Assembly (NCBI GenBank): GCA_958296135.2
Contig: CATQHZ020000001.1
Location: 608,001-672,000, forward strand
DNA length: 64,000 bases
Origin: an uncultured Poribacteria bacterium
Lineage (GTDB): Bacteria; Poribacteria; WGA-4E; WGA-3G
Reading direction: 5' to 3'
This document shows, piece after piece, positions 12,355-55,039 of this stretch. Below the pieces are notes generated by a model. The model saw only the letters and a list, made by a program, of their open reading frames with translations. It had not been told where the DNA came from and did no database searches. Position 1 is the first letter of the stretch. The number at the start of each line of letters is the position of its first letter. The translations under genes and the position numbers were made by a program.

Positions 12355-13209
12355 TTACCGCCGTTTGATGGCTCCCCAGGTGGTGGTTAACTTCCCCCAG
12401 GGCCGCACCTCAAAAGAGTTGCCATGGTAGGTGAGATGGTGCCCATTCCCGCTCGCATCCATCAGACGCTCCGCCTCACCCCAACCATCAAAATGCCAAA
12501 GTGCAACCGTGTGCGCATCCGGTTCAAAAGGCGCACGCGGCACCTCAATCGTCTCTTGCCAAAAATGATGCTCCAAGTTCTCCCGGGGATACCGGACGAT
12601 AGAGGAGATGCGCACCTCGTCAATCACGCCCTCGGAGAAAATCGTGGAAGGCGGACCGTCTCTGGGAGCCGGGTCAAAACCGAGCACGGGCTCGCGGGCC
12701 CCGCCAATACACAGCGGCCCCGGCGTGTTTATAAAGCCCCGAAATCCATCCAGTGCCCCCTTGAGAACGGTATTCGCGACTTCCTGACGATATTCGGCCT
12801 CAAACATCACCGCAATATAGTGCCATTGATTTATCGGCAGCCTCCCATCAGGACTCACAAGGAATCCCCATGAACGGCTATGCCCCGGGCCGTTCATCCT
12901 GAGGTTCACCTGGTCTTCGGCCAGTCCGATTTCATAACTGCCGGCTTTGTAAACGAGGGCCCATATCTCGCCCGGCTCCCCTGTCGTGTCGTTAACATCT
13001 TTCAGGGGCCGTTTGAGATAAAACCACAATTCCAAGGTGAACCCAGTCCGGCCCAGTCTGAAATCCAAGTCAAGCCGGTCAGGGATAAAGGCATACTCCC
13101 CGGGCGCGCCAATCGTGAAGTATCCGCCGCCGGCAGGCGAGGGAGGAATAGCTGGGGCCGAGGCAACGCCCCCCAGTCCTAACAGTATGAGAAAAACGAG
13201 AACGCGCAT
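12355..13209 (-). CDS. Secreted LamG-like jellyroll protein
   Basis: Signal peptide, FTLELWF, WHYIAV, GVIDEVRISS, HTVALWHFD; tail EVRPWGKLTTTWGAIKRR. Confidence 0.8.
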   Translation of the reverse strand: MRVLVFLILLGLGGVASAPAIPPSPAGGGYFTIGAPGEYAFIPDRLDLDFRLGRTGFTLELWFYLKRPLKDVNDTTGEPGEIWALVYKAGSYEIGLAEDQVNLRMNGPGHSRSWGFLVSPDGRLPINQWHYIAVMFEAEYRQEVANTVLKGALDGFRGFINTPGPLCIGGAREPVLGFDPAPRDGPPSTIFSEGVIDEVRISSIVRYPRENLEHHFWQETIEVPRAPFEPDAHTVALWHFDGWGEAERLMDASGNGHHLTYHGNSFEVRPWGKLTTTWGAIKRR

Positions 13210-13329
13210 TGAAACGCTCCTTTTAGCAAGTGCCGGGTGTTCACAACGGAATATGGAATCATTAGCACAAGTCGTTTTACAATTTCGTTAGAGACTCTCA
13301 TTCTAAATTCTAATCTATTTTTAGTTTTA

Positions 13330-13344
13330 GCAAGTTTCGTGCCA
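13330..13344 (-). promoter_or_regulatory. Sigma-54 (-24/-12) promoter
   Basis: Minus strand TGGCACGaaacTTGC, an exact consensus, 121 nt upstream of the LamG gene start. Confidence 0.8.
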
Positions 13345-13489
13345 AAACCGACATATCGCATAGATACGGGTGCCTCGCGCATTTTCACACTGGGGCAAAA
13401 TAACTCAATGGATACCTTTTTACCCGATAATAGGCTAAAAATTACCCACTGCCACATCATGCCCGCGCGCCGTTGCGGCACGGTCGCGG

Positions 13490-13650
13490 GGGACAGCCCC
13501 CGCGCTGCGGTGAGAGAAAGTGCTCGCGGGGGGAACCCTCGGCGATTAGTGCTCGCCGGGCCCCCGCGCTACGGGGAGGGAAAGTGCTCGCGGGGGGAAC
13601 CCTCGGCGATTAGTGCTCGCCGGGCCCCCGCGCTACGGGGAGGGAAAGCG
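13490..13650. repeat. REP-like ~65-bp tandem repeat
   Basis: GAAAGTGCTCGCGGGGGGAACCCTCGGCGATTAGTGCTCGCCGGGCCCCCGCGCTACGGGGAGG occurs twice. Confidence 0.8.
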
Positions 13651-13684: not shown

Positions 13685-14761
13685 TCATGCATCTCTCTCC
13701 TGAAAAGTTCTCAATTTGTTGCGCAAGGTAGGGCGGCTCACGTCTAATACCGCCGCGGTCTTCGCCTGATTTCCGCCCATCCGTGCGAGGGTTTCCAAGA
13801 TGTATATCTTCTCTACCTCCTTCAAGGTTAACCCGACAGGGATAGTGACGGTTGGCTGGTTTTGGGCTGCGAGAACCGCCTGGTTCGTGTCGGGTGCATA
13901 AAGTTTTTGCGGTAAGTGCTCCGGCAAGATAATTTTGCCTTCGGAGAGGATGAGTGCGTGAGTGACGACCTTTTTCAACTCTCGGATGTTTCCGGGCCAG
14001 GCGTAATCTTGGAGAAGTTGGAACGTCTGCGCGGCGAATCTGCCTATGGGTTCATCGGTGGCTGGCCGGTGTGCGTGCGCCTTTAACCGCTCGCGCAACG
14101 GTGGCAGCCGCATAGAAAATCGCGTGAGTTGCGGTGGTTCTTGTGAGAAGTGTTCCACTAACTCTCGGATATCCGCTTTCCGTTCGCGCAGCGGCGGCAG
14201 AGAAATGGAAAACCCCTCAAGTCGGTGATAAAGGTCTGCCCGAAATGCCCCTTCGTGAACGAGTTGCTCTAAGTTATGGTTAGTTGCGGCGATAATTCGG
14301 ACATTGACAGGCATCATAGTTTTGCCGCCGACGCGTTCAATCTCGCCTTCTTCTAGCACGCGTAGCAACTTGGGTTGGAGCGACAGGGGCAGATCGCCGA
14401 TTTCATCGAGGAACAGTGTCCCCTTGTCGGCGCGTTCAAACTTTCCGATATGCTGCCGCTTCGCATCGGTAAAGGCCCCCTGCTCATGCCCAAACAGTTC
14501 GCTCTCTAGGAGGTTCTCCTGAAGCGTTGTGCAGTTGACGACGACGAGAGGTGCTGTTGCGCGGGGGCTGTTATTGTGCATGGCGCGCGCGACTAATTCC
14601 TTGCCTGTCCCGGTCTCGCCGTAAATCATCACCGAGACATCATGTCTTGCGAGCAACTCAATTTTTGTCAGGACTTCGAGAGTCTGTGGGCTGCTGCCGA
14701 TGATGTCGCTGTAATCCCCGTGCAATGACTCTCTTGTCCTCTCTGCTGTTTCATGTTGCAT
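13685..14761 (-). CDS. Sigma-54 enhancer-binding activator lacking an N-terminal sensor domain
   Basis: GETGTGKE, ESELFGHEQGAFTDA, LFLDEIGDL, WPGNIRELK and an HTH; paralogue of 8988-10007. Confidence 0.92.
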   Translation of the reverse strand: MQHETAERTRESLHGDYSDIIGSSPQTLEVLTKIELLARHDVSVMIYGETGTGKELVARAMHNNSPRATAPLVVVNCTTLQENLLESELFGHEQGAFTDAKRQHIGKFERADKGTLFLDEIGDLPLSLQPKLLRVLEEGEIERVGGKTMMPVNVRIIAATNHNLEQLVHEGAFRADLYHRLEGFSISLPPLRERKADIRELVEHFSQEPPQLTRFSMRLPPLRERLKAHAHRPATDEPIGRFAAQTFQLLQDYAWPGNIRELKKVVTHALILSEGKIILPEHLPQKLYAPDTNQAVLAAQNQPTVTIPVGLTLKEVEKIYILETLARMGGNQAKTAAVLDVSRPTLRNKLRTFQERDA

Positions 14762-14924
14762 GACTTATCCTGTTTCGTTTATTTCCCCGTTAGGCGCGGT
14801 TTGTAAGCGCGCACCGGTTCGGTTGCGCGCTTACGGGCGGATAGAGACATCCGCCGTGACACGCCCTGTCGCATACTGAAACGTGAGCAAAGCGCGCCTA
14901 CGGTTGGCCTCTAGGGCTGTCCGA

Positions 14925-17006
14925 TTATTGCAAACCGGTTGCAACCAGAGTGATGCGCACCGGTTCTTCGGCTTTCGATTCATCTTTGTAGTTAAGCCCG
15001 AAGATAACTTGTGCATCGGATGCGGCTTTCTGGATGCCCTGCATTGCGCTATCCAATTCGGCCATCATGAAATCCTGTGGTGCTACCAATTCTACCAGGA
15101 TTCCGGTGGCTTTGGCGAGATTCGCGCCTTCGAGGAGCGGCGAAGAGATAGCGTTTTCTGCTGCGATACGTCCGCGTTCCTCGCCTGTCGCCTGTCCGAT
15201 GCCTATCGCTGTCTTGCCCGGGACCCGTAGGACAGCTTCAACATCGGCGAAGTCAACGGTAACTTCATGCTCGAAATTCACGATGTTCCCGGTGATGAGT
15301 TGCACGCCTCGGCTGAGCATCTCGTCGCTGATGCGGAAGGCATCCTGCATTTCGATGTTCGCGTCACCGTCGTCACCTTCGTCAATGAGGTGTTGATTGG
15401 CGACAACGATGAGGGAATCAGCAGCGGTTTGGAGTTCTTTCACGCCGTTTTCGGCTTGCGTTGCGCGCGGTTCTCCCTCAGCCTTGAAGGGCCGTGTGAC
15501 TATTGCAACGGACAACACGCCGTATCTGCGTGCGAGCGATGCGATGCGCGGCGCGGCCCCGGTGCCGGTGCCGCCGCCCATGCCGGCCACGATGAGCACC
15601 ATGTCTGCGTCTGAGACGAGGGTTTCTAGTGCTGCGCTATCTTCTTCTGCGGCCTTTCGCCCAATGTCGGGGTTGCCGTCTGCACCAAGTCCGTTGGTGG
15701 CATCCTGCCCGAGCTGGATGGGTGTGACATCGTCGTAGGTGTCCAAGGCCCCGCGGTCTGTGTCAACGGCATAAAATTCGAGCCCGGCTAACCCAGCTTC
15801 ACGCATGCGGTTGACAGCGTTTCCGCCGGCGGTGCCGACACCGATAACTTTCACTGTTACTGGCGCAGCCTTCAATTTCATCGGCATGATGAGATAGGTT
15901 TGCCGTGATTCACCTACCGGCTTCGCGATGCCGGGATTTAATTCACCGGAGCAGTTCAGTTTGACGCTTTCGGCCTCCATACGTGAGAGTGCTCCCATCA
16001 GCAGCCGTGCATCAAACCCGATGCGCAGGTTCTTCGTGCAAGAGTCAACAGGGACGAGTTCGTGTGCTCTCCCTAGTCCCGGGGTCTTCGCCGAAATCCG
16101 AATGTGCTTATCCGCTTCGTTGATTTCCAAGCAGACGACACAGCCTTTTTTCGGTTCCGATAGCATGGAGATGCGGCGGACTGCCTGCAGCATCGCTTCG
16201 CGGTTGAAAACGGTGCGGACTTCCATCGCCCCGGGTTTCGGGATAATTTTCTCATAGTCCGGGTATTCGGCATCTATCAAGCGCGTTGTCAGCGTGGTGT
16301 GCTCATCGGCGACAATCAGACACCGCGTGGTGTTAAACGGGACTTGACTTTGGAAGAACGAAACGTTCACCGAGTCAGCCTGGGCGAAGGATTGGGCGAT
16401 TGCCTGCACGGCTTTGAGCGGCACAATGAAGCCTGTCACTCCTGGCGGGGGTGTCAGCGCGTCACAATGCACAAGTGCGAGTTGGCGGCCGTCCGTTGCG
16501 ACTACCTCCGTTCTATCTTCTCGGAAGTTAAAATAGAGCCCGCACAGCATTTTCCGTTCTTTTTCCTCGGTGGATGCTGCGAATTCGGTTTTGTGGATAA
16601 CGTCGCACAGCGTCTGAGGGTGGATGTCCAAGGTTTCCCCTTCAAACGTCGGGAGTGTCGGGAATTCTGTTGCGGGTAGCCCGATAATTGTGTAAACGCT
16701 GTTCCCACACGCCAACTTCACCAAGTTGTTCGTCGGCGTGGTGAGGTGGATATCCAGTTCTGGTAGCCCCTTAACGATGTCCGCCAATTTCTTGGCAGGG
16801 ACGGTAATCGCGCCATCTTCCTGAATAGTCCCATCGACTTTGGTGCGCACGCCTACTTCCGAGTCTGTGGCGGCGCATTCAATTTTCTCCGCGTCCGCCT
16901 TGATGAGGACGTTTGAAAGCATCGGCGAAGTATTGCGCCCATTTGCAATACCCTGCACTATCTGCAGCGAGTGCAAGAGGGGTTCCTTTTGAAACGTTAA
17001 TTTCAT
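14925..17006 (-). CDS. Fusion of DNA polymerase III beta clamp (DnaN, about aa 1-378) and FtsZ GTPase core (about aa 383-693)
   Basis: DnaN part: ATDSEVG, GAITVPAKKLADIVKGLP, VATDGRQLA, TRLIDAEYPDYEKIIP, YLIMPMKL. FtsZ part: KVIGVGTAGGNAVNRM, GLGADGNPDIGRKAAEE, AGMGGGTGTGAAP, VDFADV, ITLVATG. Single ORF with RBS AGGAG. Confidence 0.93.
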   Translation of the reverse strand: MKLTFQKEPLLHSLQIVQGIANGRNTSPMLSNVLIKADAEKIECAATDSEVGVRTKVDGTIQEDGAITVPAKKLADIVKGLPELDIHLTTPTNNLVKLACGNSVYTIIGLPATEFPTLPTFEGETLDIHPQTLCDVIHKTEFAASTEEKERKMLCGLYFNFREDRTEVVATDGRQLALVHCDALTPPPGVTGFIVPLKAVQAIAQSFAQADSVNVSFFQSQVPFNTTRCLIVADEHTTLTTRLIDAEYPDYEKIIPKPGAMEVRTVFNREAMLQAVRRISMLSEPKKGCVVCLEINEADKHIRISAKTPGLGRAHELVPVDSCTKNLRIGFDARLLMGALSRMEAESVKLNCSGELNPGIAKPVGESRQTYLIMPMKLKAAPVTVKVIGVGTAGGNAVNRMREAGLAGLEFYAVDTDRGALDTYDDVTPIQLGQDATNGLGADGNPDIGRKAAEEDSAALETLVSDADMVLIVAGMGGGTGTGAAPRIASLARRYGVLSVAIVTRPFKAEGEPRATQAENGVKELQTAADSLIVVANQHLIDEGDDGDANIEMQDAFRISDEMLSRGVQLITGNIVNFEHEVTVDFADVEAVLRVPGKTAIGIGQATGEERGRIAAENAISSPLLEGANLAKATGILVELVAPQDFMMAELDSAMQGIQKAASDAQVIFGLNYKDESKAEEPVRITLVATGLQ

Positions 17007-17064
17007 TTTTCAAATCTCCTATTTCTCAGTAGTTATCAAAAGAGGATGCCGCAGAACGAGTCCG

Positions 17065-17091
17065 GTAGGCGCGGTTTGTAAGCGCGCCTAC
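17065..17091. repeat. GTAG-type REP palindrome (representative of a dispersed family)
   Basis: GTAGGCGCGGTTTGTAAGCGCGCCTAC. Related copies near 6814, 8022, 14791, 28389, 33945, 41103, 44518, 47520, 56566 and 61912, mostly just after stop codons. Confidence 0.8.
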
Positions 17092-17131
17092 GGGGGTGAG
17101 TCGGCATCTGTCCTAACATATCTTAATAATA

Positions 17132-17146
17132 GCAATTTTCGTGCCA
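17132..17146 (-). promoter_or_regulatory. Sigma-54 (-24/-12) promoter of the DnaN-FtsZ gene
   Basis: Minus strand TGGCACGaaaaTTGC, an exact consensus, 126 nt upstream of the ATG. Confidence 0.82.
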
Positions 17147-17481
17147 CATTGAAACCTGCACGTTTACGGGAGAGTCACCTTCAAGTTGGGTAAAATTTTT
17201 ATCGATAAGGGAAAGAATTTTACCGCTGCGGTTAAAGCGCATCCTGTCCGCGGCCTTCCTAGTGCCATGTCATGTTTGAATTCTCAATGTATCGTCATCA
17301 TATCCGCCTGTTGCTCAGAATTACCCGTTTATTTCCAGAATTTTCAATGGGATAAAATTCACGGAGTGCCCGCGCTTGAAACTCCAACATTTTTCTGACA
17401 GGGAGAACTGAATCGTTCTGGACAAATTCTGTGTTTGTTGGTATCATAACATGAAGCAGCGAAAAGGAGGCAGGAAAACCG

Positions 17482-19662: not shown

Positions 19663-20352
19663 GTGTTGATGAAAATCGCCTCTTACGATGAGGGTGAGGA
19701 TTTCAACATGGACGACGATGTCATCAGTGAACTTGCAACATACGGTGTTATTACCGAGGATAGTGAAGGCCGGTGTGAAATTGCCAACCCGATTTATCTT
19801 TACCGCATTCTACGGACGTTTAAACCGCTTTTGGAGCGGTTCGAGAATGAATACCACCCTCAGGACACCGGTGGGTGTTTTCGGGACTACCTCACCTCTG
19901 ATAGGCAGATTCGGATGGGACGGTTGCTGGATAACTTCCGCGATTTCATCGCCCGTGTCGGCTTCAAGATTTTGGATATGCCACAAACGCCACAGGAATA
20001 TGTAGGCCAACGTCTGCTGTTCGCCTACCTCGAGCAGTTTGTCCTGCAGGTAGGCGGTGTGATGTATCTGGAGGTGCAAACCGGCCGCGGTCGGATAGAT
20101 TTGGCGATTGCTCACCGGGGACGCAAATACGTCGTGGAGGCCAAGGTTTGGCAAGGCGAAGCCTCGTATCAGGCAGGGAAAGCGCAGCTCGTCGCCTATC
20201 TGAAATTGGAACATGCCGTGGCAGGCTATTACATTGTGTTCGATCTCCGCAAGAATCCAGTGCCCCGCGTGGAAACCGCCACGCTCAACGGGACGACGCT
20301 TCGGAGTTACGTTATCCCGGTGTTGCAAGGACGGCCCTCAGACGCGCTATAG
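19663..20352 (+). pseudogene. C-terminal fragment of an AAA-ATPase/PD-(D/E)XK nuclease-domain protein
   Basis: IANPIY, EVQTGRGRIDL, VVEAKVW, GKAQLVAYL. No Walker A domain and no convincing start or RBS. Confidence 0.6.
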
Positions 20353-31018: not shown

Positions 31019-31471
31019 TTATGCATTCACCTCGATTGGGATTTCCTTGGGTTTCACCTCTTCCGCTTTCGGCACGGTGAGCGTCAAGACACCATCGCGG
31101 TAGGTTGCGGTGATGGCATCGGCATCGACGTTCGGCGGGAGCGTGAAAGCCCGCTGGAAGCTGCCGTAGTGGCGTTCGACCCGGCGGTAGTTTTTCCCGT
31201 CGTCCGTCTGTTCCTGCCGTTTTTCGCCTCGGAGGGTGAGGACGTTGTCTCGGACAGAGACGTTGACATCGTCCTGCGTGAGTCCGGGCAGTTCGGCGCG
31301 GACTTCAAAGGTGTCGTCCGTTTCGGAAATATCGACGGCGGGGTTCCAGGTGTCTGCTTTCGCTTCCGTTTGCGCGTTCGGCTCGGCGAACAGGTTGTGG
31401 AAGAATTGCCCCATCTCGTTCTGAAGATTGAACAGGCTTCCTGCCGGTCTGCGTAAGGTTACGTAATTCAT
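31019..31471 (-). CDS. Small heat-shock protein Hsp20
   Basis: PAVDISET, AELPG, ERHYGSFQRAFTLP, ATYRDGVLTLTVPK. Confidence 0.95.
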   Translation of the reverse strand: MNYVTLRRPAGSLFNLQNEMGQFFHNLFAEPNAQTEAKADTWNPAVDISETDDTFEVRAELPGLTQDDVNVSVRDNVLTLRGEKRQEQTDDGKNYRRVERHYGSFQRAFTLPPNVDADAITATYRDGVLTLTVPKAEEVKPKEIPIEVNA

Positions 31472-31547
31472 TTTCATTCTCCTTTTTGTTTTAGTGTTGA
31501 CATTATCGTTGCAAATGCCAAACTTTGTTTTGTCTATAACGTTTTTA

Positions 31548-31603
31548 GCAATTTCTATGCCAAAAGTTGGCACGCTGCAAAAGATATAGCAAATTGCGTG
31601 CCA
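31548..31603 (-). promoter_or_regulatory. Two tandem sigma-54 promoters upstream of Hsp20
   Basis: Minus strand TGGCATAgaaaTTGC (31548-31562) and TGGCACGcaatTTGC (31589-31603). Confidence 0.75.
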
Positions 31604-54614: not shown

Positions 54615-54688
54615 GTTCCCCTCCGCTATTTTGGCGGTAGACGCGCTTTCAACGCGCGCCTCCGGCAATCTGCCGGTATCATTTTGAA

Positions 54689-55039
54689 TGGAGGTGGCGG
54701 GAGTCGAACCCGCGTCCGAAGGCATTTTAATAGAGGCTACTACATGCTTGTCACAGGATTAAGGTTCGCCTATCAGATGCTCCTATGCTGGCACCTCGGT
54801 AGACTATCTCAAGTAGAGGTTCGCGGTTCGCTTCCTGAGACAATGCGAACGGCTAGCCTGTCTTGCGGCGCTTTAGCTTCCCTGACAGGCGGCAGGTCGG
54901 CCAAGCGTGGCTGCGTTAAGCAGCCAGTGCTAATTCTTCATCAGCAATTATAATTGTTCCGCCAATTTAACGAGGCCTGCGGAGTCCTCGGCATGCAACC
55001 CCATATCTCAACTACCTACGTCGAAACCATTTCACCCCC
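54689..55039 (-). ncRNA. ssrA: tmRNA
   Basis: 5' GGGGGTGAAATGGTTTCGAC; 3' GACGCGGGTTCGACTCCCGCCACCTCCA; tag frame ADEELALAA* at 54945-54916; adjacent to smpB. Confidence 0.96.

What the first reader, a model, noticed from the sequence alone, without database searches (positions are those of the whole stretch)
14925..17006. Sliding clamp (DnaN) fused in frame to a tail-less FtsZ
Seen: one 693-aa ORF contains a complete three-domain beta clamp ending in YLIMPMKL (aa 378), a ~5-residue linker (KAAPV) and an FtsZ globular core with an intact GGGTGTG signature. The protein stops at ITLVATGLQ. The first glycine loop is altered (GVGTAGG versus the usual GVGGGGG) and the T7 loop reads TVDFAD rather than NxDFAD. 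The gene is not in a dnaA/recF/gyrB or dcw/ftsA context. Established: DnaN is a dimeric ring around DNA, and FtsZ reaches the membrane through its C-terminal peptide (bound by FtsA, SepF or ZipA), which is missing here. Inference: this is an accessory paralogue that tethers a tubulin-family GTPase to DNA or the replisome. It could couple replication to division by capping or poisoning Z-rings near DNA, or act like TubZ in DNA segregation. I know of no characterised protein with this architecture.
Basis: partly seen in the sequence, partly recalled or inferred. Interest (0 to 1): 0.93.

Follow-up and report, generated by a model that had tools for sequence, protein, structure and literature searches.

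The report
Sliding clamp fused to tail-less FtsZ
One genus of uncultured bacteria (Candidatus Poribacteria) carries an extra, conserved gene that joins a DNA-encircling replication clamp to a stripped-down copy of the cell-division protein FtsZ, a combination I found described nowhere, which may physically link DNA to the division machinery.

Summary
Window 14925-17006 (-) encodes a 693-aa protein: a complete three-domain beta clamp (aa 1-378), a 5-residue linker, and an FtsZ globular core that stops where the core ends.

It is not an assembly artefact. The in-frame fusion recurs at 63-80% identity in 12 other protein clusters, in 3 of 3 genomes of one Poribacteria genus, and in 0 of the other 173 genomes of the phylum. 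Both halves are under purifying selection (omega about 0.23-0.26).

It is an accessory gene. The genome also holds a canonical ftsZ with a tail in a dcw cluster, and a standalone dnaN.

New findings:
- The clamp half is a recent duplicate of the genus's own dnaN.
- The FtsZ half belongs to an older accessory FtsZ lineage that elsewhere is fused to ECF sigma domains and to Pol III alpha.
- In a sister genus the same locus holds the unfused tail-less core.
- The gene sits behind a perfect sigma-54 promoter and in front of a receiver-less sigma-54 activator.
- The T7 loop is degenerate in 10 of 11 orthologues.

Function is inferred, not shown. The most likely role is an inducible, DNA-tethered modulator of FtsZ polymers.

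The parts
14925..17006 (-). dnaN-ftsZ fusion gene, 693 codons plus stop
   Evidence: Orthologues are at 63-80% identity. omega is about 0.23-0.26 in both halves.
15873..17006 (-). beta sliding clamp half, aa 1-378, three domains, ending ...YLIMPMKL
   Evidence: Pfam and NCBIfam. End-to-end alignment with solved clamps. Sister to the genus's own standalone DnaN, support 99. The otherwise invariant RYFLNG motif is lost.
15858..15872 (-). 5-residue linker KAAPV (aa 379-383)
   Evidence: The length is the same in all 11 aligned orthologues.
14928..15857 (-). FtsZ globular core, aa 384-693, with no C-terminal linker and no C-terminal peptide. T1 reads GVGTAGG, T4 reads GGGTGTG, T7 reads TVDFAD.
   Evidence: It lies inside an accessory-FtsZ clade, support 99. 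A clade with the canonical FtsZ of the genus is rejected, p-AU 7.9e-10.
17131..17146 (-). sigma-54 type -24/-12 promoter TGGCACGAAAATTGCT, 125 nt upstream of the ATG
   Evidence: Perfect match to TGGCAC-N5-TTGCW. There are 3 perfect matches in the window against 0.03 expected. It is conserved upstream of the G002 fusion (perfect) and the G009 unfused core (1 mismatch). rpoN is present in the genome.
17065..17091 (-). GC-rich palindrome in the 5' leader
   Evidence: Read from the sequence. Other contigs share about 20-30 nt here (tables 5, 7, 8), so it is probably a dispersed REP-like repeat. Its function was not tested.
17015..17019 (-). ribosome-binding site AGGAG, 8 nt before the ATG
   Evidence: Sequence printed. 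The same ATAGGAGATTTG string is present in G002.
13685..14761 (-). sigma-54 enhancer-binding protein: AAA+ domain plus HTH_8, with no receiver or other sensory domain, 163 nt downstream on the same strand
   Evidence: Pfam. Orthologues lie directly downstream of the accessory ftsZ in 4 of 4 contexts: G000, G001, G002, G009. Close orthologues are rare. omega is 0.15. Co-transcription is not shown.
13329..13344 (-). second perfect sigma-54 promoter, TGGCACGAAACTTGCT, upstream of the LamG gene
   Evidence: A perfect counterpart, TGGCACGGAACTTGCT, is present in G002.
12355..13209 (-). LamG/ConA-like protein gene (284 aa), a probable second target of the same activator
   Evidence: Pfam Laminin_G_3. 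The assignment to one regulon is inference from the twin promoters.

Best explanation
Shown. This is a real, expressed-looking accessory gene of one Candidatus Poribacteria genus. It arose when a duplicate of the housekeeping dnaN was placed in frame in front of an older, already tail-less accessory ftsZ. That accessory ftsZ sits behind a sigma-54 promoter and in front of a receiver-less sigma-54 activator.

Inferred mechanism:
1. Under the unknown signal that switches on the activator, the cell makes a clamp-FtsZ protein.
2. The clamp half dimerises into a ring on DNA, alone or with the housekeeping clamp. This puts two FtsZ cores on the face of the ring from which the clamp's C-terminus emerges.
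3. The FtsZ cores still bind GTP. Through their intact nucleotide-binding face they co-assemble with the housekeeping FtsZ.
4. They lack the membrane-tether peptide, and their T7 loop is degenerate. Such subunits would therefore hold FtsZ polymers on the nucleoid and slow or cap their turnover.

The outcome would be an inducible, replication-linked brake or positioning cue for the Z-ring, comparable in effect to nucleoid occlusion.
For: Real and functional:
- Architecture and exact domain boundaries.
- 13 of 120 listed hits share the architecture.
- 3 of 3 genomes of the genus have it, and 0 of the other 173 genomes of the phylum.
- omega is 0.23-0.26 in both halves.

Accessory:
- A canonical ftsZ with tail lies in a dcw cluster, and there is a standalone dnaN.

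Origin:
- Trees and AU test.
- A syntenic unfused 308-aa core in G009.

Inducible:
- A perfect sigma-54 promoter, conserved in G002 and G009. There are 3 perfect sites in the window against 0.03 expected.
- rpoN is present.
- The activator is downstream in 4 of 4 contexts.

GTP binding probably kept:
- The T1, T4, T5 and T6 motifs are conserved.

T7 degenerate:
- Canonical INVDFAD becomes V(S/T)V(G/D)FAD or ISIGFAD in the fusions and INVNFAD in the unfused core.
- N207, D209 and D212 are described as highly conserved T7 residues of E. coli FtsZ (passages of PMC8456036).

Precedents:
- Tail-less FtsZ paralogues are dispensable for division, localise to mid-cell only through the full-length FtsZ, and co-polymerise with it (passages of 10.1101/412759).
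- A clamp tolerates a roughly 27-kDa fusion partner in vivo: dnaN-egfp and dnaN-mcherry replacing dnaN in M. smegmatis gave normal growth (passages of PMC4337567).
Against: - No biochemical, localisation or expression datum exists. No RNA run holding the locus was listed.
- The 5-residue linker puts a 34-kDa domain beside the clamp's partner-binding cleft, and the cleft-rim motif RYFLNG, invariant in housekeeping clamps of the order, is lost. Loading by the clamp loader, and hence DNA tethering, may be impaired.
- The window's own copy has the first T7 Asp (TVDFAD), so the degeneracy is not uniform.
- In sister genera the same accessory FtsZ lineage is fused to ECF sigma and Pol III alpha, mostly with intact T7 loops. 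This fits a scaffold or regulatory role at least as well as a division brake.
- The conserved neighbour is a transcription activator, not a division or replication gene.
- The effect of T7 mutants (dominant-negative, capping) is recalled by me.
Confidence: 0.4

Rival explanations
1. Regulator of the adjacent sigma-54 activator. The tail-less FtsZ core, with the clamp as a DNA or replication sensor in this genus, binds the receiver-less AAA+ activator encoded just downstream. It gates the activator's activity in trans, as PspA does for PspF (recalled). The output would be transcription of the sigma-54 regulon (its own operon and the LamG gene), not Z-ring control.
For: - The activator has no sensory domain.
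- It follows the accessory ftsZ in 4 of 4 contexts, across two genera.
- Its close orthologues are as rare as the accessory FtsZ: 85, 84 and 58% identity, then 51% or less.
- Twin perfect sigma-54 promoters flank the locus.
- In sister genera the same FtsZ lineage is fused to another transcription-initiation factor, an ECF sigma domain.
Against: - Gene neighbourhood is the only evidence.
- No known case of an FtsZ-family protein regulating an enhancer-binding protein is known to me.
- The gaps between the two genes vary (163 to about 680 nt), so a single operon is not assured.
Confidence: 0.2
2. Replisome or DNA scaffold. The FtsZ core polymerises on its own or in bundles. This would gather clamp rings and the DNA they encircle, for segregation in the manner of TubZ or for building repair or replication foci. 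It would parallel the sigma-FtsZ-Pol III alpha proteins of sister genera.
For: - The accessory FtsZ lineage is repeatedly joined to replication proteins: to a clamp here, and to an extra Pol III alpha in G012 and G007 and in P0246.
- ECF sigma-clamp fusions are common in the same family.
- The GTP-binding motifs are intact.
Against: - No partner such as a centromere-binding adaptor is seen in the neighbourhood.
- The degenerate T7 loop argues against dynamic, self-sufficient filaments.
- A. tumefaciens FtsZ1, also tail-less, does not polymerise alone.
Confidence: 0.2
3. Evolutionary accident with little or no function. The fusion would be a neutral or decaying gene, tolerated because both parents have intact copies elsewhere.
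For: - It evolves 3-6 times faster at the protein level than the housekeeping paralogues: omega 0.23-0.26 against 0.07 and 0.04.
- Conserved motifs are lost in both halves.
- The taxonomic range is narrow.
- Contigs of two of the four runs carry an extra T behind 16757 that would break the frame.
Against: - omega is well below 1 in both halves at dS of about 0.45-0.53.
- The frame is open and the junction length unchanged in 11 of 11 aligned orthologues, down to 63% identity.
- Three clusters hold 80 members in all.
- The promoter, ribosome-binding site and neighbour are conserved.
Confidence: 0.05
4. Assembly or gene-calling artefact: two separate genes joined by a chimeric contig or a sequencing error at the junction.
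For: The window comes from a metagenome-assembled genome. The four runs that bridge the junction are from one sample and may be its source.
Against: - The same in-frame junction is found in other assemblies from other sources (ENA, Logan, NCBI), on contigs up to 5.8 Mb.
- The junction is protein-precise: the last clamp residue, then 5 residues, then the first FtsZ strand.
- No stop codon occurs in any of 11 aligned orthologues.
Confidence: 0.01

Closest known systems
Tail-less accessory FtsZ paralogues: FtsZ1 of Agrobacterium tumefaciens, the second FtsZ of Rhizobium meliloti, FtsZm of Magnetospirillum gryphiswaldense
   Same: - An FtsZ truncated right after the globular core.
- It coexists with a full-length essential FtsZ.
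- It lies outside the dcw cluster.
- Those proteins reach the Z-ring through, or interact with, the full-length FtsZ (passages of 10.1101/412759).
   Different: - None of those is fused to a clamp or to any DNA-binding module.
- They are alphaproteobacterial.
- FtsZ1 co-polymers hydrolyse GTP at the normal rate, whereas here the T7 loop is degenerate.
- This one is under a sigma-54 promoter.
Beta sliding clamp DnaN and accessory clamp paralogues (extra dnaN copies in some Bacillus and Streptomyces; recalled)
   Same: - A complete three-domain clamp that aligns end to end with solved clamps.
- It is derived from the organism's own dnaN.
   Different: - It carries a 34-kDa domain 5 residues after its last residue.
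- The RYFLNG motif, invariant in housekeeping clamps of this order, is lost.
- It is not next to replication genes.
DNA-bound or inducible FtsZ antagonists: SlmA, Noc, SulA, MciZ (MciZ capping is mentioned in passages of PMC8456036; the others are recalled)
   Same: The proposed effect is the same: FtsZ assembly is restrained where DNA is, or under a specific condition, by a protein that engages FtsZ subunits or filament ends.
   Different: - There is no sequence relationship.
- Here the FtsZ-binding part would be an FtsZ core itself, and the DNA-binding part a topological clamp rather than a sequence-specific binder.
- The effect is hypothetical.
TubZ/TubR and other tubulin-family DNA segregation systems (recalled)
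   Same: A tubulin-family GTPase is linked to DNA.
   Different: - In those systems the link is through a separate centromere-binding adaptor.
- TubZ is a divergent family, whereas this is a genuine FtsZ core (TIGR00065).
- No adaptor or centromere repeats are seen here.
Phage T4 late transcription: sliding clamp gp45 with sigma-like gp55 (recalled)
   Same: It is relevant to the sister proteins. The ECF sigma-DnaN fusions of related genera join a sigma factor to a sliding clamp, as gp45 and gp55 do non-covalently.
   Different: - The window's protein has no sigma domain.
- Its link to transcription is only through the sigma-54 promoter and the neighbouring activator.

Membership tests
Beta sliding clamp (DnaN) | Three DNA_pol3_beta domains in order, full length | tested here: met
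   Pfam 1-119, 128-250, 254-376. TIGR00663 at 247.5 bits against a cut-off of 137.65. End-to-end alignment with solved clamps.
Beta sliding clamp (DnaN) | Conserved partner-binding cleft including the C-terminal MPM(R/K)L | tested here: inconclusive
   TDGRQL, YPDYEKIIP, GFDARLL and YLIMPMKL are kept. RYFLNG, invariant in 15 of the 17 non-fusion clamps shown, is replaced by RKMLCG, RPFLKA or RDFLRT. Assigning these motifs to the cleft is from my recollection of the E. coli structure.
Beta sliding clamp (DnaN) | Head-to-tail dimer ring that the clamp loader loads on DNA | not testable with these tools
   The AF2 model was too poor to use (pLDDT 42.4). The complex predictor was unavailable.
FtsZ | Tubulin-type GTPase domain plus FtsZ_C domain, with the GGGTGTG signature | tested here: met
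   Pfam 385-542 and 597-693. TIGR00065 at 295.4 bits against a cut-off of 295.2. Aligns to residues 10-312 of solved FtsZ. The signature is present.
FtsZ | T7 synergy loop N-x-D-F-A-D | tested here: not met
   The window has T-V-D-F-A-D. 10 of 11 aligned orthologues have (S)-(V/I)-G-F-A-D. All 7 canonical FtsZ rows shown have I-N-(V/L)-D-F-A-D.
FtsZ | C-terminal linker and conserved membrane-tether peptide | tested here: not met
   The protein ends at ...VATGLQ, as do all 11 orthologues. The genome's canonical FtsZ has a linker of about 120 aa and DIPAFLR.
FtsZ | GTP-dependent polymerisation and role in division | not testable with these tools
The gene is not in a dcw context.
Tail-less accessory FtsZ paralogues | Truncated after the core, and coexisting with a full-length FtsZ | tested here: met
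   The unfused 308-aa form is at the syntenic locus in G009.
Tail-less accessory FtsZ paralogues | Co-assembly with the full-length FtsZ | not testable with these tools
   The core is 56% identical to the own canonical FtsZ core. No assay was possible.
Sigma-54-dependent gene | A -24/-12 element at a suitable distance, rpoN in the genome, and an enhancer-binding protein at hand | tested here: met
   A perfect site 125 nt upstream, with 3 perfect sites in the window against 0.03 expected. Conserved in G002 and G009. rpoN is present. The activator is downstream. Actual sigma-54 dependence was not tested.
TubZ-type segregation system | TubZ-family GTPase with an adaptor (TubR) and centromere repeats | tested here: not met
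   The GTPase is a true FtsZ. No adaptor-like gene lies among the neighbours. I made no dedicated search for repeats beyond what searches showed.

The most novel reading that the evidence does not exclude
The fusion would be one face of an unrecognised Poribacterial system. In it, an accessory, tail-less FtsZ lineage serves as a modular coupler between replisome parts and transcription-initiation factors. The replisome parts are the beta clamp here and an extra Pol III alpha in sister genera. The initiation factors are ECF sigma domains fused in cis, and a receiver-less sigma-54 activator encoded next door. Gene expression and perhaps division would then be gated by the state of DNA replication. 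That would be a cellular counterpart of phage T4's clamp-activated late transcription, built with a tubulin-family GTPase as the switch.
Probability: 0.2. Interest if true: 0.92.

Novelty: new variant of a known kind. Interest (0 to 1): 0.78.

Why it matters
How bacteria tie chromosome replication to cell division is a long-standing question. The known links are indirect: nucleoid-occlusion factors, SOS inhibitors and terminus-binding proteins. Here evolution has covalently joined the two emblematic machines, the ring that rides on replicated DNA and the polymer that builds the division ring, and has kept the product under selection.

Whatever its exact role, the protein is a ready-made probe:
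- It can be expressed in laboratory strains.
- Each half has well-established assays.
- Its relatives form a natural series of architectures in which to test what an FtsZ core does when attached to DNA-transaction proteins: the unfused core, sigma-FtsZ, sigma-FtsZ-Pol III alpha and sigma-clamp.

Two limits apply. The fusion itself is confined to one genus of uncultured bacteria, and every functional statement here is inference.

Tried and rejected
Structure.
- AF2 of the full protein with the 11-sequence alignment A1 gave mean pLDDT 42.4 and pTM 0.30. That is too poor for any statement on geometry. I attribute it to the shallow alignment.
- A deeper mixed alignment, A2, put the DnaN-only rows onto the FtsZ half. 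I discarded it.
- I left the second AF2 job unused because coordinates cannot be inspected here.

Interaction.
- Complex prediction for the FtsZ core (A4) with the activator (A3) was answered 'not available'. Nothing was folded, so the binding idea remains untested.

Earlier findings.

More loci.
- The metagenome scan used generic DnaN and FtsZ patterns. 0 of the 80 loci kept cover both halves.
- The genome-contig scan gave only the two Poribacteria MAGs already known, plus 13 unrelated dnaN loci.

Expression.
- No RNA holder was listed.

Rejected readings.
- Assembly chimera (see rivals).
- Read-through of two neighbouring genes. In G009 no dnaN lies upstream of the core; the FGE/BNR gene does, divergently.
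- A recent copy of the canonical ftsZ (AU test; I named the group after seeing the tree).
- A terminator between the fusion and the activator: none was found by the scan.
- The Q-L-T-R-F motif in the activator's insert as a clamp-binding motif. I did not pursue it. It is also present (Q-L-E-T-F) in G009, where no clamp is fused, and its fourth position is not hydrophobic (consensus recalled).

Literature.
- The IncA preprint (10.1101/2025.01.13.632716; abstract and passages) concerns a RarA-type ATPase and does not bear on this locus.
- Searches were used only as search listings.
- Supplements are closed. The linker used in the M. smegmatis dnaN fusions (Text S1 of PMC4337567) was not seen.

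Rows left out.
- P0004 and P0010 (short contigs) were left out of alignment A1.
- The trees use matches from 16 of the 40 relatives (one of them, G001, contributes only a canonical FtsZ row), the own genome, and three metagenome fusions.
Full report
1. The observation.

The ORF listing and translate give one 693-aa ORF at 14925..17006 on the minus strand. Pfam finds the three clamp domains (1-119, 128-250, 254-376), the tubulin/FtsZ GTPase domain (385-542) and FtsZ_C (597-693), all above their cut-offs. NCBIfam finds dnan over 1-378 and ftsZ over 381-692. The ftsZ match only just passes its equivalog cut-off, 295.4 against 295.2 bits.

Against solved structures, the clamp half aligns end to end up to the very last residues of clamps. 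The FtsZ half aligns to residues 10-312 of FtsZ cores and stops there. Five residues, KAAPV, join the last clamp residue to the first FtsZ strand. An AGGAG lies 8 nt before the ATG.

2. Real, not a chimera.

Logan contigs from four runs each span 14700-17300 in one piece. All four runs come from one sample, which may be the source of the window, so this is weak on its own. The stronger evidence is recurrence:
- 13 of the 120 listed hits of the 5.8-billion-protein search have all five domains at 100% coverage and 63-100% identity, with lengths of 687-710 aa.
- Three of those clusters hold 18, 21 and 41 members, on contigs up to 5.8 Mb. Only one member carries a name, 'DNA polymerase III subunit beta'.
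- In 11 aligned orthologues the frame is open, the linker has the same length, and every protein ends at ...ATGL(Q/D/E).

Among 176 genomes of the phylum, a junction-spanning query matches over its full length in 3. These are the three genomes of genus g1, one of them cut by a contig end. All other listed matches start at the FtsZ side. Record titles name the organisms Candidatus Poribacteria.

In a scan of 1.84 billion cluster representatives, only one other representative (P0012) covers both halves. The four other two-stretch hits are FtsZ-FtsZ tandems.

3. Selection.

Between G000 and G002, omega (Nei-Gojobori) is 0.232 for the clamp half and 0.242 for the FtsZ half, at dS of about 0.47-0.53. 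Against G001 the values are 0.264 and 0.226. The housekeeping dnaN gives 0.071, the canonical ftsZ core 0.040, and the neighbouring activator 0.150. Both halves are therefore constrained, equally, but more loosely than their housekeeping relatives.

4. An accessory gene.

The genome (5.19 Mb in 4 contigs) has a second FtsZ. This one has GVGGAGG, INVDFAD, a long linker and a DIPAFLR-type end, and it lies beside ftsA, an FtsQ-type POTRA protein and a Mur ligase.

The genome also has a standalone 370-aa DnaN on the chromosome, 67% identical to the clamp half. A third DnaN lies on a 144-kb contig full of phage-type genes.

5. Two histories.

In a 35-row clamp tree, the four fusion clamp halves form one clade (support 99). 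That clade is sister (support 99) to the standalone DnaN of genus g1. The fusion side of this split is about six times longer, 0.43 against 0.07 changes per site.

In a 36-row FtsZ tree, the fusion cores do not sit with the canonical FtsZ of g1. They lie inside a 17-row clade (support 99) of accessory FtsZs of the same bacterial family. Forcing them together with the g1 canonical FtsZ costs 40 log-likelihood units, p-AU 7.9e-10. I named that group after seeing the tree.

Their nearest neighbour (support 89) is a 308-aa FtsZ of genome G009, genus g4. It is also tail-less and consists of nothing but the core.

6. The locus.

G009 has the same gene order as the window. An FGE-sulfatase/BNR gene is followed, divergently, by the FtsZ core and then a sigma-54 activator, with a LamG gene further on. 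G002 is syntenic with the window as well.

The fusion therefore arose when a dnaN copy was set between the promoter and an existing tail-less ftsZ. It did not arise by loss of a stop codon between neighbouring genes.

7. Regulation.

A perfect TGGCAC-N5-TTGCW element lies 125 nt upstream of the ATG (17131-17146, minus strand). A near-identical one lies upstream of the LamG gene (13329-13344). The window has 3 perfect sites against 0.03 expected, and 0 of 100 shuffles reach 3.

G002 has perfect sites at both corresponding places. G009 has a one-mismatch site 79 nt upstream of its FtsZ core. An A/T-rich tract and the ribosome-binding site are also shared between G000 and G002. rpoN is present.

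The downstream gene encodes an AAA+ sigma-54 interaction domain, a lid and HTH_8, but no receiver or other sensor domain. It follows the accessory ftsZ in 4 of 4 contexts. Its close orthologues are few: 85, 84 and 58% identity, then 51% or less. No terminator-like site was found between the two genes, but co-transcription is not shown.

8. What has changed in the two halves.

Clamp half. TDGRQL, YPDYEKIIP, GFDARLL and YLIMPMKL are kept. The RYFLNG motif is replaced by RKMLCG, RPFLKA or RDFLRT. That motif is invariant in 15 of the 17 non-fusion clamps displayed; the exceptions are sigma-fused ones. From my recollection of the E. coli clamp, this segment lines the partner-binding cleft, next to which the C-terminus emerges.

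FtsZ half. The T1, T4, T5 and T6 motifs are kept. The T7 loop is not. Canonical INVDFAD reads VTVDFAD in the window, VSVGFAD or ISIGFAD in the other 10 of 11 orthologues, and INVNFAD in the unfused G009 core. N207, D209 and D212 are called highly conserved T7 residues of E. coli FtsZ in the passages I read of PMC8456036. That their mutation cripples GTPase and poisons wild-type polymers is my recollection.

9. The wider family (noticed, only partly followed).

The same accessory FtsZ clade contains three further forms:
- Proteins of 1370-1486 aa with ECF sigma regions 2 and 4, a full FtsZ core and a complete Pol III alpha (G012, G007, and P0246). The polymerase is an extra copy there.
- Truncated sigma-FtsZ forms.
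- 407-aa proteins with an ECF sigma domain plus only the GTPase domain of FtsZ.

Most of the 120 hits listed are ECF sigma-DnaN fusions of about 575 aa. In G012 and G006 such a gene lies 1-3 kb from the sigma-FtsZ(N) gene, among ABC-transporter genes.

So three domain types, clamp, FtsZ core and sigma, occur in all three pairwise combinations in this bacterial family, and a replicative polymerase joins in.

10. Mechanism.

Shown: the anatomy, conservation, accessory status, origin and promoter type. Inferred: everything about activity.

I favour an inducible, DNA-tethered FtsZ modulator (confidence 0.4). The ring half would put the protein on DNA. The core would join housekeeping FtsZ through its intact GTP face. 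Without a membrane tether and with a weak T7 loop, it would hold or cap polymers on the nucleoid.

Precedents:
- Tail-less FtsZ paralogues reach the Z-ring only through the full-length protein and co-polymerise with it (passages of 10.1101/412759).
- Clamps stay functional with a roughly 27-kDa fusion partner in M. smegmatis (passages of PMC4337567; the linker is described in a supplement I could not see).

Against this reading:
- The very short linker and the altered cleft rim may prevent loading.
- The conserved partner is a transcription activator.
- Sister proteins point at least as much to a regulatory or scaffold role.

The rivals are a trans-regulator of the receiver-less activator (0.2), a self-polymerising DNA or replisome scaffold (0.2), a nearly neutral accident (0.05) and an artefact (0.01).

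11. Novelty.

Four full-text searches returned no paper on a natural clamp-FtsZ fusion or on the sigma-clamp fusions. The terms were FtsZ / sliding clamp / fusion / Poribacteria; Poribacteria + FtsZ; six phrasings of DnaN-FtsZ fusion; and ECF sigma + C-terminal extension + DnaN. The three 'DnaN fused' hits are engineered tags in the two whose passages I read, and by its title in the third. The library lacks most subscription journals, so absence there is not proof.

I file it as a new variant of known kinds, namely tail-less accessory FtsZ and accessory clamp. There is a 0.2 chance that it is part of a new coupling system.

12. Limits.

- No expression data exist for this locus.
- The AF2 model was unusable.
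- Contexts are known for only four genomes.
- The trees are quick-search trees of a chosen subset of rows.

Noticed in passing
L019:7000-8724 (-) (G012); also L020:3845-5578 (+) (G006); P0014 and many others: ECF sigma factor (regions 2 and 4) fused N-terminally to a complete beta clamp, about 575 aa. It is widespread in genera g2 and g5 of the same family: frames of at least 570 aa with a clamp match occur in at least 12 of the 41 genomes, and that listing is truncated. It is reminiscent of phage T4 gp55-gp45 (recalled). A search for ECF sigma + C-terminal extension + DnaN found no paper.
   Followed up: partly
L084:2561-6670 (-) (G012, 1370 aa); L086:2332-6789 (+) (G007, 1486 aa); P0246: Single proteins with ECF sigma regions, a full FtsZ core and a complete DNA polymerase III alpha (PHP, polymerase, finger, HHH). 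The polymerase is an extra copy in G012. Frames of at least 1349 aa occur in at least 10 of the 41 genomes. G004 (551 aa) and G013 (585 aa, followed by a transposase-like ORF) look like truncated forms.
   Followed up: partly
L019:4789-6009 (-) (G012); L020:8906-10129 (+) (G006): 407-aa proteins with an ECF sigma domain plus only the GTPase domain of FtsZ. They lie 1-3 kb from the sigma-clamp gene, in a cluster with ABC-transporter-like genes and a DUF5916/CBM9 protein.
   Followed up: partly
G000 contig C2 (143.9 kb), for example L017:1-14001: The genome's third DnaN sits among thymidylate synthase, thymidylate kinase, RNA ligase, a GIY-YIG/NUMOD3 endonuclease, a radical-SAM protein, SSB and dUTPase. 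The contig also has its own Pol III alpha. It is probably a large phage or other element binned with the genome.
   Followed up: partly
window 16757: Contigs of two of the four runs (X1, X4, the shallower ones) carry an extra T (TT to TTT) inside clamp domain I. This would shift the frame. The two deeper runs do not have it. It is either an assembly error or a minor variant.
   Followed up: no
window 14824-14857 and 17065-17091; also about 13480-13620: GC-rich palindromes flank the fusion gene. Other contigs of the same runs share 20-30 nt with them (tables 5, 7, 8), which suggests dispersed REP-like repeats. Two direct copies of a GC-rich unit of about 70 nt lie upstream of the LamG promoter. 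Related palindromes occur in G002.
   Followed up: no
window 31588-31603 (-) and 31547-31562 (-): A third perfect sigma-54 promoter consensus, with a one-mismatch site beside it, at the start of ORF 31019..31573 (-).
   Followed up: no
window 13685-14761 (-): The sigma-54 activator has GAFTDA where the family consensus of alignment A3 reads GAFTGA. It also has an insert of about 45 aa that repeats the LPPLRER motif (…SISLPPLRER… then …SMRLPPLRER…). Both features are shared by all four orthologues.
   Followed up: partly
alignment A1, columns 105-116 (window aa about 104-105): 8 of 11 fusion orthologues carry an 8-12-residue insertion in clamp domain I just before the strand ...IIGLPATEFP. The window, P0002 and P0013 lack it. 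Its effect on the ring interface is unknown.
   Followed up: no
P0121, P0130, P0131, P0142 (other organisms): Tandem FtsZ-FtsZ fusion proteins of 731-840 aa, each with two full cores.
   Followed up: no
window 54686-55039 (-): tmRNA gene, Rfam RF00023, 169 bits.
   Followed up: no
window 19663-20352 (+): A 229-aa ORF with a weak PD-(D/E)XK hit (E 8.9e-4, below the cut-off). It found no match in the G002 stretch, whose neighbouring matches leave room for about 2.2 kb of other DNA there.
   Followed up: no
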